IMG/VR virus record: IMGVR_UViG_3300032053_000003
Span: 222,392-237,444 of that record
Strand: one strand, 5' to 3'
Length of the DNA: 15,053 nucleotides
Source: a virus
Every line of letters starts with the position of its first letter. Position 1 is the stretch's first letter. Positions 9,027-15,053 of this stretch are shown in pieces. The translations under genes were made by a program, and so were the position numbers. The notes beneath the pieces were generated by a model, which saw nothing but the letters and a program-made list of their open reading frames with translations, had not been told where the DNA came from and did not search any database.

Positions 9027-9212
9027 TTACTCTCCTACTCCATTCTTAGTCTTTTTGTCTTCTCTCCACTCTTTCAAAAATTCTGTACAGAGGTCAGCAC
9101 AATCAGAGCATATACTTACATCAGGACCCATAATAAAGAATTCAGCCTCTTCATAGTACTGTCCACAGAAAGAGCAATAGTGAGTAGGCAATCCCTGATC
9201 AGCAATGTTCAC
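9027..9212 (-). CDS. stand-alone ClpX-type C4 zinc-binding domain (zf-C4_ClpX) protein, 61 aa
   Basis: HYCSFCGQYYEEAEFFIMGPDVSICSDCADLCTEFLKEW aligns with E. coli ClpX residues ~13-50, [39 protein letters not shown]. Matches are YCSFCG, GP.V.IC..C.DLC and all four Zn Cys. GTG start overlaps the upstream TGA (GTGA). Confidence 0.8.
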   Translation of the reverse strand: MNIADQGLPTHYCSFCGQYYEEAEFFIMGPDVSICSDCADLCTEFLKEWREDKKTKNGVGE

Positions 9213-10801: not shown

Positions 10802-11125
10802 TTAATTCTTTTTAAGCTTCTTGTATACAAAGTTGGCACCTAATCCCACAACTACCATACCGAGGATAGCCCACCCTACAACAGGTATAGATCCAGAAAG
10901 TACAAGAGAGGTTACTCCTCCTGCCATACCTGTACCACCTGCTGCCATAGAGCCACCTCCAGCTGCTGCCAAAGCTGTAGTGGTTGTCACCGCACTAGCC
11001 CCAGCACCACCAAGGGCAGTCACTGTGGCTGCATGAGCAATGGAAACCCCCACACAAGCCCCACCAGCCAAACCTATTCCTGCTCCTGCTGTTGTAACAG
11101 CTACTTCGTCATTAGGCATATTCAT
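10802..11125 (-). CDS. Gly/Ala-rich small membrane protein with glycine-zipper-like repeats and a C-terminal TM helix
   Basis: SD gaagggag. The ATG overlaps the TGA of the upstream peptide gene (ATGA). AGAGIGLAGGACVGVSIAHAATVTALGGAGASAV...GGGSMAAGGTGMAGGVTSLVLSGSIPVVGWAILGMVVVGLGANFVYKKLKKN. Local GC is well above the window background. The + strand shadow ORF 10821-11036 is a by-product of this composition. Confidence 0.55.
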   Translation of the reverse strand: MNMPNDEVAVTTAGAGIGLAGGACVGVSIAHAATVTALGGAGASAVTTTTALAAAGGGSMAAGGTGMAGGVTSLVLSGSIPVVGWAILGMVVVGLGANFVYKKLKKN

Positions 11126-13118: not shown

Positions 13119-13205
13119 TGAGGTGAATGAATGACATTGATATTGCTAAGAAGGAAGAGAAGAAGGAATCTTTAATCAAGGGGGTCATCCCATAGGAGGT
13201 ATATT

Positions 13206-13723: not shown

Positions 13724-14299
13724 ATGGGTAATGTGAGCAGTATAAAAGTAAAGAACAGTAGTGTCGTTTCCATAACCGATGCCCTTAGTACCCTCAGGGG
13801 AAACAAGGCACGGTTGAGGAGACAGAAGGGTAGGGCAAGTGTAGCCAAAGAGCCTAAGGAGCCTGGACTGCATGGTAAGAATGTCCCTGGCTTCCCTATC
13901 ATTGATGGTTTGGATGAAGAGAAGACCATCATAGGCAAGGGGATAGTGGCCCTGAACAGGGCATTGTTTGAGCAGACTCTCTATGAGTCAGAACGGCTTG
14001 GTAAGATCAGGAAGATACTGTCCAAGGTTGAAGTGAACCTGCTGGATGAGAAGGCATTTGATAAGCTTGATGTTGCTCAGAAGATGAAGATCTTTGAAGT
14101 GCTCCGTAAGGACTCTGAGACTACCGTTAACTTCCTGGAGAGGATGCAGAGGAACTCCATGCAGGTTATGGTAGTTTTTGAGATCTATAAAAAGCTGATG
14201 GAGACAATTATACCTGATGATGGGAAGGGTCTTCCTGCTGATATTGATAAGAGTAAGCTCATCCAGGTTCGTGGTGCTCTCCTTGAGATGATTAAGTGA
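13724..14299 (+). CDS. hypothetical protein; C-terminal 14 aa (KLIQVRGALLEMIK) identical to gene 14677-14907
   Basis: SD aggaagggtttATG. 191 aa, basic N-terminus, helical C-terminus. Its stop overlaps the start of the next gene (TGATG). Confidence 0.6.
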   Translation: MGNVSSIKVKNSSVVSITDALSTLRGNKARLRRQKGRASVAKEPKEPGLHGKNVPGFPIIDGLDEEKTIIGKGIVALNRALFEQTLYESERLGKIRKILSKVEVNLLDEKAFDKLDVAQKMKIFEVLRKDSETTVNFLERMQRNSMQVMVVFEIYKKLMETIIPDDGKGLPADIDKSKLIQVRGALLEMIK

Positions 14300-14305
14300 T
14301 GAGTA
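14255..14305 (+). repeat. 51-nt direct repeat (copy A), 50/51 identical to 14863-14913, spanning a gene 3' end, stop/start overlap and the next gene's first codons
   Basis: aagctcatccaggttcgtggtgctctCcttgagatgattaagtgatgagta versus the same sequence with one C-to-T change. Confidence 0.9.
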
Positions 14306-14676
14306 GAGCTAAACAGTTTTTAGAGCAACATGACTTGATCGAGAATATCAAGAAGTTCCTGTTTACAGAAGATGGATATGATACCTGGGAAGAGTTTGTT
14401 GATCATCAGGAGATTGGTAACTGTCAAGGTATTGCTGCTTCTATAGTTAGGAAATTCCCACAGGCTAAGAAGGTTTTCGGAGAGATTGATGTTGAAGAGT
14501 CCTATGTGGATGACAAGGGAGAGGAACAGGACAAGGTAACACATCACTGGATTAAAATAGGCAAAGATACCTATGACTTTTCTAAAGGTACTTTGAAAGA
14601 TTATATTACCTTCGATGATATCTATGATCCGGAAATAGAGGATGTAAGTATCTATCATCCTATATCTGGTGGTTAA
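14296..14676 (+). CDS. hypothetical protein (MMSRAKQFL…); possible Cys/His active-site pair (NCQGIAASIV … THHWIKIG)
   Basis: Start is GTG 14296 or ATG 14299, overlapping the upstream TGA. 126 aa. Its N-terminus is paralogous to the partial gene at 14907. Confidence 0.55.
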   Translation: MMSRAKQFLEQHDLIENIKKFLFTEDGYDTWEEFVDHQEIGNCQGIAASIVRKFPQAKKVFGEIDVEESYVDDKGEEQDKVTHHWIKIGKDTYDFSKGTLKDYITFDDIYDPEIEDVSIYHPISGG

Positions 14677-14907
14677 ATGAATACTACTCCCATGAACATA
14701 GATCCGAAGATTCGGAAGGCTGTAAAGAAGCTCTCTAAAGAGGAGGCATCTTTTCTCCTGTCTGATATTGAGGGTTACAAAGAGCCTTTAGTTGATATCA
14801 ACCAGTTCATAGAGGACCCTGAATATTTGGGTGGTATCCTGAAGGATGAGAACGGTAAGACCAAGCTCATCCAGGTTCGTGGTGCTCTTCTTGAGATGAT
14901 TAAGTGA
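14677..14907 (+). CDS. hypothetical small protein; C-terminal tail paralog of 13724-14299
   Basis: ATG directly after the upstream TAA. 76 aa ending ...GKTKLIQVRGALLEMIK. Confidence 0.55.
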   Translation: MNTTPMNIDPKIRKAVKKLSKEEASFLLSDIEGYKEPLVDINQFIEDPEYLGGILKDENGKTKLIQVRGALLEMIK

Positions 14908-14913
14908 TGAGTA
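14863..14913 (+). repeat. 51-nt direct repeat (copy B) of 14255-14305
   Basis: See copy A. The two copies lie 608 nt apart at equivalent gene junctions. Confidence 0.9.
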
Positions 14914-15053
14914 AAGCCAGGTCTTTCCTTTTAAAGGTTCAGGAAAGTAATAAGGTTTCCAATGAAGAAGTATATAGTATGGTTCAAAAGATACATAGGA
15001 ACCATGATGACTTTGCTGAGGGTGATCTGGGAAAGAGGCTGGATAAGTATGAT
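14907..15053 (+). CDS. hypothetical protein, 3'-truncated at window edge (MSKARSFLLKVQ…), paralog of 14296-14676
   Basis: The ATG overlaps the upstream TGA in the same TGATGAGTA context as at 14297. The frame is open to the window end. Confidence 0.45.
   Translation, partial: MSKARSFLLKVQESNKVSNEEVYSMVQKIHRNHDDFAEGDLGKRLDKYD

What the first reader, a model, noticed from the sequence alone, without database searches (positions are those of the whole stretch)
13724..15053. Tandem paralogous two-gene cassettes sharing a 51-nt near-identical block across the gene junction
Genes 13724-14299 and 14677-14907 are otherwise dissimilar but end in the same 14 residues (KLIQVRGALLEMIK). Each is followed, through the same TGATGAGTA stop/start overlap, by a gene beginning MMS(R/K)A(K/R)xFL. 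At nucleotide level 14255-14305 and 14863-14913 are 50/51 identical, while the surrounding genes have diverged extensively. Such preservation implies either very recent gene conversion or selection on the nucleotide sequence itself. The sequence could be a coupling or reinitiation element, an RNA structure (the ctcatc...gatgag inverted repeat flanks the block), or a recombination site for shuffling N-terminal modules onto a constant C-terminal interaction helix. The pattern is reminiscent of module-swapping loci such as polymorphic toxin/immunity or receptor-binding cassettes.
Basis: seen in the sequence. Interest (0 to 1): 0.6.

Follow-up and report, generated by a model that had tools for sequence, protein, structure and literature searches.

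The report
Recombination scar beside the phage terminase gene
The repeated 51-base block is a leftover of a recent DNA rearrangement in a gene-swapping hot spot next to a giant phage's DNA-packaging gene, not a conserved functional element; this is ordinary phage genome mosaicism, caught with its joints still visible.

Summary
In detail: 14255-14305 and 14863-14913 are 50/51 identical and occur only twice in the 25 kb I could read.

The window belongs to a 230-kb phage contig. Just past the window's end lies an intein-containing terminase large-subunit (TerL) gene.

"Gene" 14677-14907 is a chimera. Its first 191 nt copy the TerL 5' end: nt 1-105 are about 68% identical and nt 106-191 are 86/86 identical. 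At an AAGCT microhomology this copy is joined to the last 45 nt of gene A.

- **Relatives.** In five relatives gene A abuts TerL directly. Others carry different cargo there: an ART-PolyVal gene, a roughly 4.8-kb gene set, or, in one phage, homologues of D and B in the opposite order with no duplicated block.
- **Cassettes.** B has a transglutaminase/papain-like fold and D a ParB-like nuclease domain. They are unrelated, independently mobile cassettes.
- **No nucleotide-level selection.** In a relative the same 14 residues are encoded with ordinary synonymous divergence, and no RNA structure is supported.

The block is therefore a recent recombination scar in a hypervariable slot.

The shared MSKA..FLE start belongs to a peptide leader found on at least 8 unrelated genes. 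It may be a capsid-targeting tag.

The parts
13724..14299 (+). Gene A (191 aa), a conserved core gene that precedes the terminase large-subunit gene in all relatives. It is helical, has no known family, and is a candidate small terminase by position only.
   Evidence: ORF. Homologues sit immediately upstream of TerL in L012, L015, L016, L021, L024, L026 and L027. Its C-terminal helix K(L/M/I)xxV(R/K)GxL(L/I)(E/D).. is conserved at protein level. No Pfam, PHROG or PDB family matched.
14255..14305 (+). Block copy 1: the native 3' end of gene A (14 codons plus TGA) with the overlapping start (GTG ATG AGT A) of gene B.
   Evidence: The right-hand part continues into a B sequence collinear with B of L024.
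14296..14676 (+). Gene B (125/126 aa; ATG at 14299). It is an accessory cassette encoding a small Cys-His protein with a transglutaminase/papain-like fold.
14677..14907 (+). Chimeric ORF C (76 aa): 62 codons copied from the TerL 5' end fused in frame to the last 14 codons of gene A. It keeps the TerL-type start context (GGTGG..TAAATG).
   Evidence: BLASTP gives 79% identity over 67 aa to the TerL N-terminus, E 5e-39. Nucleotide self-match is, and alignments are.
14677..14781 (+). Diverged part of the TerL 5' copy (nt 1-105 of C). It is about 68% identical to the resident TerL and 71-73% to the TerL of L024 and L012, so it derives from a different TerL allele.
   Evidence: The protein is closer to P0001-type TerL (IDPKIRKAV.KLSKEEASF.LSDIEGYKEPL) than to the resident TerL.
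14782..14867 (+). An 86-nt tract identical to nt 106-191 of the resident TerL gene (window-equivalent 15380-15465, L001 10704-10789). The sharp switch from about 68% to 100% marks a recombination or conversion end point.
14863..14867 (+). Joint J1: AAGCT microhomology shared by gene A (14255-14259), ORF C and TerL nt 187-191. This is where the TerL copy switches to gene A sequence.
   Evidence: Three-way alignment. The flanking imperfect similarity (GATAAGAGTAAGCT versus GGTAAGACCAAGCT) explains the '71 nt, 89%' extension.
14863..14913 (+). Block copy 2: a duplicated patch of the A-end plus B-type start, lying between the TerL fragment and gene D.
   Evidence: Homology of D to its L024 homologue begins at window 14912, at the 3' edge of the block.
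14904..15053 (+). Gene D (122/123 aa; ATG at 14907; continues to window-equivalent 15275). It is an accessory cassette encoding a ParB-like nuclease-domain protein (IIDGIHRANA). Its first codons (M-M-S) come from the block.
   Evidence: The full ORF is in L001 10228-10599. PHROG gives ParB-like hits, E 9e-6. Homologues carry PF02195, and D100, G101, H103 and R104 are invariant. It is 87% nt identical to L024 D. The joint is shown.

Best explanation
**What the block is.** The 51-nt block is the 3' end of core gene A (14 codons plus stop) together with the overlapping start of the next gene. It is present twice because of a recent recombination in a hypervariable cargo slot between gene A and the terminase large-subunit (TerL) gene of a roughly 230-kb phage.

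**Layout.** A - [block] - B - [191-nt copy of the TerL 5' end] - [block] - D - TerL.

**Most parsimonious history (inferred).** Two genome copies, or two related co-infecting phages, carried different cargo genes (B or D) in the same slot. They underwent an unequal, microhomology-guided crossover. TerL nt 191 of one was joined to the AAGCT 45 nt before the end of gene A in the other. This gave two head-to-tail units of 608 and 598 nt.

A homologous exchange or conversion end point at TerL nt 105/106 accounts for the 86-nt perfectly identical tract next to a tract that is about 68% identical.

**Consequences.**
- ORF 14677-14907 is a by-product: 62 TerL codons plus 14 gene-A codons.
- Because the joint is in frame, ribosomes starting at the retained TerL start site stop at the block's TGA. 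The ATG of D overlaps that stop (TGATG). D therefore inherits the stop-start arrangement that B has with A (inferred, not tested).
- The two pairs of direct repeats (51 nt and 86 nt) could resolve the structure by deletion to A-D-TerL or A-B-TerL (inferred).
For: **Shown.**
- The second copy abuts a TerL 5' copy: a 178-nt self-match at 84%, split into 68% and 86/86 identical segments, with the joint at a shared AAGCT. ORF C is 79% identical to the TerL N-terminus.
- The downstream 775-aa gene has Walker A and B motifs around a 183-aa intein. Intein-free relatives of this gene (up to 87% identical) match PHROG terminase large-subunit families, with E down to 1e-9.
- Gene A abuts TerL with no cargo in L015, L016/L023, L021, L026 and L027.
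- Other relatives carry different cargo there. L011-L014 have an ART-PolyVal gene. L022+L025 have about 4.8 kb of other genes. L024 has D then B.
- L024 1785-2347 is collinear with window 14299-14867, that is, B followed by the TerL start.
- B is 92.6% and D 87% nt identical to the L024 copies, while gene A is 65% and TerL 74%. The cargo has therefore moved recently between lineages.
- D's homology to L024 starts at the block's 3' edge.
- Synonymous divergence of the block in L012 equals that of the rest of gene A.
- The structure is identical in nine contigs from several samples.

**Precedent.** T4 makes tandem segmental duplications at 6-10 bp microhomologies, leaving one copy of the microhomology at the joint (PMC9391042).
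Against: - The exact order of events is not resolved. No single-cargo parent with the block (A-block-B-TerL or A-block-D-TerL) was found.
- A simple one-step tandem duplication is excluded, because the unit interiors differ. At least three novel joints plus one homologous end point are needed.
- Only about 25 kb of the 230-kb genome could be read, so further copies elsewhere are not excluded.
- No relative carries ORF C, so selection for or against it cannot be measured.
- Translational coupling of D to C is inferred only from the overlap and the lack of a strong Shine-Dalgarno sequence.
Confidence: 0.85

Rival explanations
1. The block is kept identical by selection on the nucleotide sequence. 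It would be a functional cis element: a translational coupling or reinitiation module, an RNA structure, or a dedicated recombination site that is portable between gene pairs.
For: Both copies carry the same TGATG stop-start overlap, and neither B nor D has a strong Shine-Dalgarno sequence, unlike neighbouring genes with AGGAGG. Some coupling function of the overlap is therefore plausible. The block's 3' edge is a recombination joint.
Against: In L012 the same peptide is encoded with 6 of 14 codons changed synonymously, the same rate as the rest of the gene. In L015, L016, L021 and L024 both nucleotides and residues diverge. Fold energies are not better than shuffles, and the predicted structures differ between relatives. 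There is no Rfam family and no promoter or terminator signal at the block. Only two copies were found.
Confidence: 0.07
2. This is a tandem duplication of a two-gene module (A-like gene plus partner) followed by divergence. The conserved C-terminal helix would be an interaction module for the downstream partner.
For: The two units are head to tail and of similar length, 608 and 598 nt. Both upstream ORFs end in the same helix.
Against: A and C share only 16 residues, and C is a TerL N-terminal fragment. B and D are different folds. In L024, D follows A and B follows D, so no pairing is conserved. Uniform divergence cannot give 0% and 32% difference in adjacent tracts.
Confidence: 0.02
3. D is a selfish nuclease gene that inserted itself at the TerL 5' region by double-strand-break repair. 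It would have dragged donor flanks with it, making the 86-nt identical tract and the block co-conversion tracts.
For: D has a ParB-like nuclease domain. TerL of this clade is a magnet for selfish elements, with inteins at three or more sites. The sharp 100%/68% boundary resembles a conversion tract.
Against: Small ParB-like proteins are not a known homing-endonuclease class (my knowledge). D sits in another position relative to B in L024 and in a different neighbourhood in a T4-like phage. B, ART-PolyVal and other non-nuclease genes use the same slot.
Confidence: 0.08
4. The arrangement is an assembly artefact: a chimeric join of two strain variants carrying B or D.
For: Several short contigs end within or near the locus. 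One of them ends in Illumina adapter sequence.
Against: Contigs from ENA, JGI and Logan assemblies of different samples are 100% identical across the joints. L001 and L002 span everything, and L003 spans C-D-TerL. The repeats (51 and 86 nt) are shorter than a read.
Confidence: 0.02

Closest known systems
Microhomology-bounded tandem segmental duplications in phage T4 (Srikant, Guegler and Laub 2022, PMC9391042; earlier T4 work cited there)
   Same: The units are head to tail. The novel joint lies in a short microhomology (here AAGCT, there 6-10 bp), with a single copy of it at the joint. The rearranged region holds accessory genes, and the product can be lost again through repeat-mediated deletion.
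   Different: The two units here do not have the same interior (B versus D; the TerL 5' part is 68% identical). The partners were therefore different alleles or phages, or one unit was later replaced. One end of the unit lies inside an essential gene, leaving a truncated TerL copy.
Cassette shuffling in hyperplastic regions of T4-type phages through conserved linker sequences (PeSLs; Arbiol et al. 2010, PMC2839356)
   Same: A fixed slot between conserved core genes holds different small ORFan cargo in close relatives. Short conserved sequences at cassette borders serve as crossover sites.
   Different: There is no intergenic promoter plus stem-loop linker here. Genes overlap stop to start, and no promoter or terminator signal lies at the block. 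The recurring border sequence is coding: the end of gene A, the first codons of the cargo, and the TerL 5' end.
Phage mosaicism by illegitimate recombination and 'moron' insertion (Hendrix, Juhala and colleagues; from my knowledge)
   Same: Novel joints at or near gene boundaries, extra genes inserted between core genes, and sharp transitions in sequence identity.
   Different: Here the scar is fresh enough that both the duplicated flank and the truncated copy of the neighbouring essential gene are still intact and in frame.
T4 internal proteins and Alt with an N-terminal capsid targeting sequence cleaved by the prohead protease at L/I-x-E (PMC9026906, PMC3012670)
   Same: A 9-13-residue N-terminal leader is shared by otherwise unrelated small proteins, and in the window phage those genes lie in the A-TerL-portal block. 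The leader ends in hydrophobic-x-E. The cargo includes an ADP-ribosyltransferase, like Alt. The locus is highly variable between relatives.
   Different: The leader sequence differs (M-S/T-K/R-A-x-x-F/L-L-E versus MKTYQEFIAE). No prohead protease gene was seen in the DNA available, and no virion or processing data exist. The resemblance is a lead, not a demonstrated membership.
Solo versions of polyvalent-protein effector domains next to virion genes (Iyer et al. 2017, PMC5512222)
   Same: ART-PolyVal, ParB-like DNase and peptidase-type domains are encoded beside packaging and structural genes of a portal-terminase phage.
   Different: Here they are separate small genes, not one multidomain protein. 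D was not shown to belong to the DdrB-like ParB subfamily.

Membership tests
Microhomology-bounded tandem segmental duplication (T4 type) | Two head-to-tail units in the same register | tested here: met
   Block copies are 608 nt apart and TerL 5' copies are 598 nt apart.
Microhomology-bounded tandem segmental duplication (T4 type) | The novel joint falls in a short microhomology that flanked the unit, and one copy of it is left at the joint | tested here: met
   AAGCT is shared by gene A, ORF C and TerL at the switch point.
Microhomology-bounded tandem segmental duplication (T4 type) | Both units are copies of the same sequence | tested here: not met
   B and D are unrelated. TerL 5' nt 1-105 is only 68% identical. 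This needs different parental alleles or a later replacement.
Polymorphic toxin / immunity (orphan cassette) array | A constant region precedes variable C-terminal toxin domains, each followed by its cognate immunity gene | tested here: not met
   The shared block is the C-terminal end of the upstream ORFs, and one of those ORFs is a TerL fragment. B and D are enzyme-like folds, not immunity proteins.
Polymorphic toxin / immunity (orphan cassette) array | The pairing of upstream and downstream genes is conserved across genomes | tested here: not met
   L024 has A-D-B-TerL. L012 has A-ART-TerL.
PeSL-type mobile regulatory cassette | An intergenic sigma-70 promoter plus GC-rich stem-loop of about 100 bp flanks the cargo | tested here: not met
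   Genes overlap or abut. No promoter-like or terminator-like site lies at the blocks, and there is no significant fold.
T4-type capsid-targeting-sequence proteins | A short N-terminal leader is shared by otherwise unrelated proteins | tested here: met
   8 of 36 called genes start M[STK][KRE]A. They are mutually unrelated by BLASTP. Under a stricter motif and my own ORF calls, the count is 4 of 49 genes, against an internal tripeptide frequency of 0.0012, P about 4e-7. Codons vary, so the motif is at peptide level.
T4-type capsid-targeting-sequence proteins | The leader ends in the prohead-protease site (L/I-x-E) | tested here: inconclusive
   Hydrophobic-x-E lies within 14 residues in 8/8 leader genes versus 3/28 others (P 5e-6). 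The strict [LI]-x-E form is present in 5/8 versus 3/28 (P 0.006). Cleavage itself is untested.
T4-type capsid-targeting-sequence proteins | The phage encodes a gp21-type prohead protease, and the proteins are found processed in virions | not testable with these tools
   Only about 30 kb of the 230-kb genome could be fetched. No protease family appears in the gene tables of the held loci.
Homing endonuclease gene with co-conversion tracts | The inserted gene belongs to a recognised homing-endonuclease class | tested here: not met
   D matches ParB-like families only. No LAGLIDADG, HNH or GIY-YIG hit was found.
Terminase large subunit (the 775-aa gene downstream of the window) | Walker A and B ATPase motifs, and homology to TerL families | tested here: met
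   GAIGGGKST and GLLDEAS flank the intein. 10 of 27 family members hit PHROG phrog_2 'terminase large subunit', best E 1e-9. A PDB sequence search was negative.
Terminase small subunit (gene A) | Homology to a known small-terminase family | tested here: not met
   No Pfam, PHROG or PDB match for A or its 48 distant homologues. Only its position upstream of TerL, its size and its helical content fit.

The most novel reading that the evidence does not exclude

The most novel reading not excluded is that it is a capsid-targeting propeptide, removed after hydrophobic-x-E by the prohead protease, as in T4 internal proteins and Alt. On that reading, B (a Cys-His enzyme), D (a ParB-like nuclease), the ART-PolyVal protein and others would be virion-packaged proteins injected into the host.

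The slot between gene A and TerL would then be an exchange site where new effectors are plugged in behind a resident start and leader. The 51-nt block and the TerL 5' copy would be the footprints of one such exchange.
Probability: 0.3. Interest if true: 0.6.

Novelty: new member of a known kind. Interest (0 to 1): 0.3.

Why it matters
The block itself matters little. It is a fresh footprint of the illegitimate and homologous recombination that makes phage genomes mosaic.

Its value is as a clean natural example. All joints are readable: a 5-nt microhomology, a truncated in-frame copy of an essential gene, and a start codon transplanted onto a new cargo gene. Relatives show the empty site and alternative cargo.

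It also warns annotators that the 76-aa ORF is a terminase fragment, not a new gene family.

The by-product, a shared leader on many unrelated cargo proteins next to the packaging genes, would matter more if confirmed. It would give a sequence tag for predicting injected effector proteins in an uncultivated giant-phage clade.

Tried and rejected
- **RNA element.** Folding both block copies and the equivalent regions of L012 and L015 gave z-scores from -1.36 to +0.89 and no shared structure. Rfam at a permissive threshold gave only a chance sub-threshold hit.
- **Promoter or terminator linker.** None lies at the blocks.
- **More copies.** None in the window or in the loci of other phages, and none in IMG/VR.
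- **Public phage matches.** INPHARED had no nucleotide match. IMG/VR had no relatives of gene A or TerL. The JGI metagenome scan with a gene A profile gave only 3 loci.
- **Identity of gene A.**
  - Pfam, PHROGs and PDB sequence and profile searches were negative, including on 48 distant homologues.
The single-sequence model was unusable, pLDDT 45.
- **Prohead protease.** 10 kb downstream of TerL in relative L023 shows none.
- **Apparent variant contig.** The divergent end of L004 is Illumina adapter sequence.
- **Single-cargo parents.** None with the block were found among the relatives I could fetch.
Full report
**Observation.** The two 51-nt stretches, 14255-14305 and 14863-14913, are 50/51 identical. 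None of 200 dinucleotide-preserving shuffles gives such a match. Each covers the last 14 codons of an ORF (KLIQVRGALLEMIK), its TGA stop and the overlapping start GTGATGAGTA of the next ORF. The upstream ORFs share nothing else, and the downstream ORFs are not significantly similar.

**Where the window comes from.** Exact look-ups of the two upstream proteins place the window in a 230,776-bp contig (ENA ERZ27247916:k141_351042). Shorter contigs from other samples carry the same sequence.
- Window coordinate = L001 coordinate + 4676.
- All nine contigs are 100% identical over the locus.
- L001 and L002 span the whole structure, and L003 spans from the end of B through C and D into TerL, so it is not an assembly artefact.
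- One contig's odd end is Illumina adapter.

**The key fact lies just beyond the window.** Downstream of the second pair is a 775-aa gene (L001 10599-12926). Its first 64 residues are nearly the same as the first 62 residues of 'gene' 14677-14907.

At nucleotide level the 5' 191 nt of ORF 14677-14907 (called C here) copy the 5' end of that gene. The copy has two parts:
- nt 1-105 are only about 68% identical;
- nt 106-191 are 86/86 identical.

At AAGCT, a pentamer also present 45 nt before the end of gene A, the sequence switches to the end of gene A. C is therefore a chimera of 62 codons of the downstream gene and 14 codons of gene A.

The '71 nt at 89%' extension reported by the repeat finder is only the imperfect similarity around this microhomology.

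**Identity of the downstream gene.**
- It has a P-loop (GAIGGGKST) and a Walker B motif (GLLDEAS) separated by a 183-aa intein.
- Its spliced form finds 39 relatives.
- Ten of 27 intein-free relatives match PHROG 'terminase large subunit' families, best E 1e-9.
- PDB sequence searches are negative.

I call it a divergent terminase large subunit (TerL). A T4-like portal gene with an intein lies 4 kb further on.

**What relatives show.** I fetched the neighbourhood of nine distinct TerL relatives.

| Relative locus | What lies between the gene A homologue and TerL |
|---|---|
| L015, L016/L023, L021, L026, L027 (TerL 61-81% identical where measured) | Nothing; gene A ends within 0-8 nt of the TerL start |
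| L011-L014 | One ART-PolyVal gene |
| L022 + L025 | About 4.8 kb of genes, including a response regulator and a PAS histidine kinase |
| L024 | A homologue of D, then a homologue of B, then TerL; no second block and no TerL fragment |

Adjacency of gene A and TerL is therefore ancestral, and the junction is an insertion hot spot.

Further comparison with L024:
- L024 1785-2347 is collinear with window 14299-14867, that is, B followed by a TerL start.
- B and D are 92.6% and 87% nt identical between the two phages, whereas gene A is 65% and TerL 74%. The cargo has moved recently between lineages.
- Homology of D to its L024 copy begins at window 14912, at the 3' edge of the block. L024 D instead has a 20-codon 5' extension.
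- The block's right edge is thus a second novel joint, and D's first codons (M-M-S) were transplanted from the B-type start.

**What the cargo genes are.**
- D has the ParB/sulfiredoxin motif IIDGIHRANA. It hits ParB-like PHROGs, some homologues carry PF02195, and the motif residues are invariant.
- B and D are unrelated to each other.

**Is the block under nucleotide-level selection?** No.
- L012 encodes the same 14 residues with 6 synonymous codon changes. Identical codons among identical residues are 8/14 in the block against 47/83 in the rest of gene A.
- In L015, L016, L021, L022 and L024 the residues themselves diverge, while keeping the pattern of a C-terminal helix.
- RNA folds are not better than shuffles and are not shared between relatives.
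- Rfam and promoter or terminator scans are negative.

**Mechanism (inferred).** The simplest history is an unequal, microhomology-guided crossover between two genome copies or related co-infecting phages. One carried B and the other D in the same slot.
- The crossover joined TerL nt 191 of one to the AAGCT near the end of gene A in the other.
- A homologous exchange or conversion end point at TerL nt 105/106 explains the 0%/32% divergence step.
- A one-step duplication within a single genome is excluded because the unit interiors differ.
- The exact order of events cannot be resolved.

T4 forms tandem segmental duplications at 6-10 bp microhomologies in the laboratory (PMC9391042). T4-type phages also shuffle ORFan cassettes at short conserved border sequences (PMC2839356).

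The in-frame joint means that ribosomes starting at the retained TerL start of C terminate at the TGA that overlaps D's ATG. This is the same arrangement B has with gene A. B and D lack the AGGAGG seen before neighbouring genes, so coupling is plausible but untested.

**Gene A.** It has 51 distant homologues of 73-223 aa, plus one 1,633-aa outlier. None matches a known family, and the single-sequence model is unusable. 'Small terminase' is a guess from position only.

**The N-terminal similarity.** Beyond the three codons inside the block, B and D share A(K/R)xFL. The same leader, M-(S/T)-(K/R)-A-x-x-(F/L)-L-E, heads 8 of 36 called genes of this genome. All eight lie in the A-TerL-portal block. 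Several genes of the relatives carry it too.
- The eight proteins are mutually unrelated.
- Codons and start codons vary, so the motif is at peptide level.
- It is far above chance.
- All eight have hydrophobic-x-E within 14 residues, against 3 of 28 other genes.
- Homologues of B and D in other phages lack MSKA but start with similar M..F..YL.E sequences. One D homologue lies between the gp15-like and terminase genes of a T4-like phage.

This resembles the T4 capsid targeting sequence and the L/I-x-E site of the T4 prohead protease (PMC9026906, PMC3012670). ART, ParB-like DNase and peptidase domains are typical of virion-delivered phage effectors (PMC5512222).

I could not find or reach a prohead protease gene. 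This remains a hypothesis, at about 0.3.

**Verdict.** The block is real but ordinary. It is a recent recombination scar in a cargo slot beside the terminase gene, and the 76-aa ORF is a terminase fragment.

Noticed in passing
window 14299, 14907; L001 13979, 14522, 15503, 15938, 16320, 19213; L012 3511, 4561, 6934, 7172, 8980, 10757; L015 4178; L022 1573: A peptide leader, M-(S/T)-(K/R)-A-x-x-(F/L)-L-E, heads many mutually unrelated genes around the terminase and portal genes. It ends in hydrophobic-x-E, like a T4 capsid-targeting propeptide. The gene upstream of A (window 13206, MSVSSDFLK; MSKAEDFIK in L024) has a related start.
   Followed up: partly
L001 10599-12926; L015 5001-8030; L016 5001-8021; L025 4001-6094; L001 16730-19066: Inteins occupy at least three different sites in the terminase large subunit of this clade: before Walker B, inside the P-loop (with LAGLIDADG), and before the P-loop. 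L025 has two. The portal-like gene also carries an intein.
   Followed up: partly
L022 1573-3314 and L025 1-3996: In one relative the slot between gene A and TerL holds about 4.8 kb. The cargo includes a CheY-like response regulator and a 911-aa PAS-domain histidine kinase with a receiver domain, which is unusual for a phage.
   Followed up: no
L001 13979-14470 (window-equivalent 18655-19146): The window phage has its own ART-PolyVal ADP-ribosyltransferase gene 3.4 kb downstream of the locus. It is only 27% identical to the ART-PolyVal gene that fills the A-TerL slot in L012.
   Followed up: partly
L012 2995-3087; L015 3686-3778: A conserved 30-aa, extremely basic ORF (MGGD(R/K)K(G/S)KVKKEKKK..) follows the roughly 440-aa gene in two relatives. 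The window has only an 88-nt gap at the equivalent place (13119-13205).
   Followed up: no
window 9027-9212 (-): A 61-aa ORF matches the ClpX-type C4 zinc finger (PF06689 in the precomputed gene table). It lies within a leftward block of small Cys-rich ORFs.
   Followed up: no
window 10802-11125 (-): A 107-aa Gly/Ala/Thr-rich ORF with a hydrophobic C-terminal segment overlaps a 40-62-aa ORF. It could be a membrane or holin-like pair.
   Followed up: no
L004 741-787: The public contig ERZ27247707:k141_2144958 ends in Illumina TruSeq adapter sequence (AGATCGGAAGAGCGTCGTGTAGGGAAAGAGTGT).
   Followed up: yes
L018 4001-4369: A D homologue (69% identical) lies between a T4 gp15-like gene and a Terminase_6 large terminase in an unrelated 253-kb T4-like phage. 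This ParB-like gene is therefore found next to packaging genes in two very different phage lineages.
   Followed up: partly
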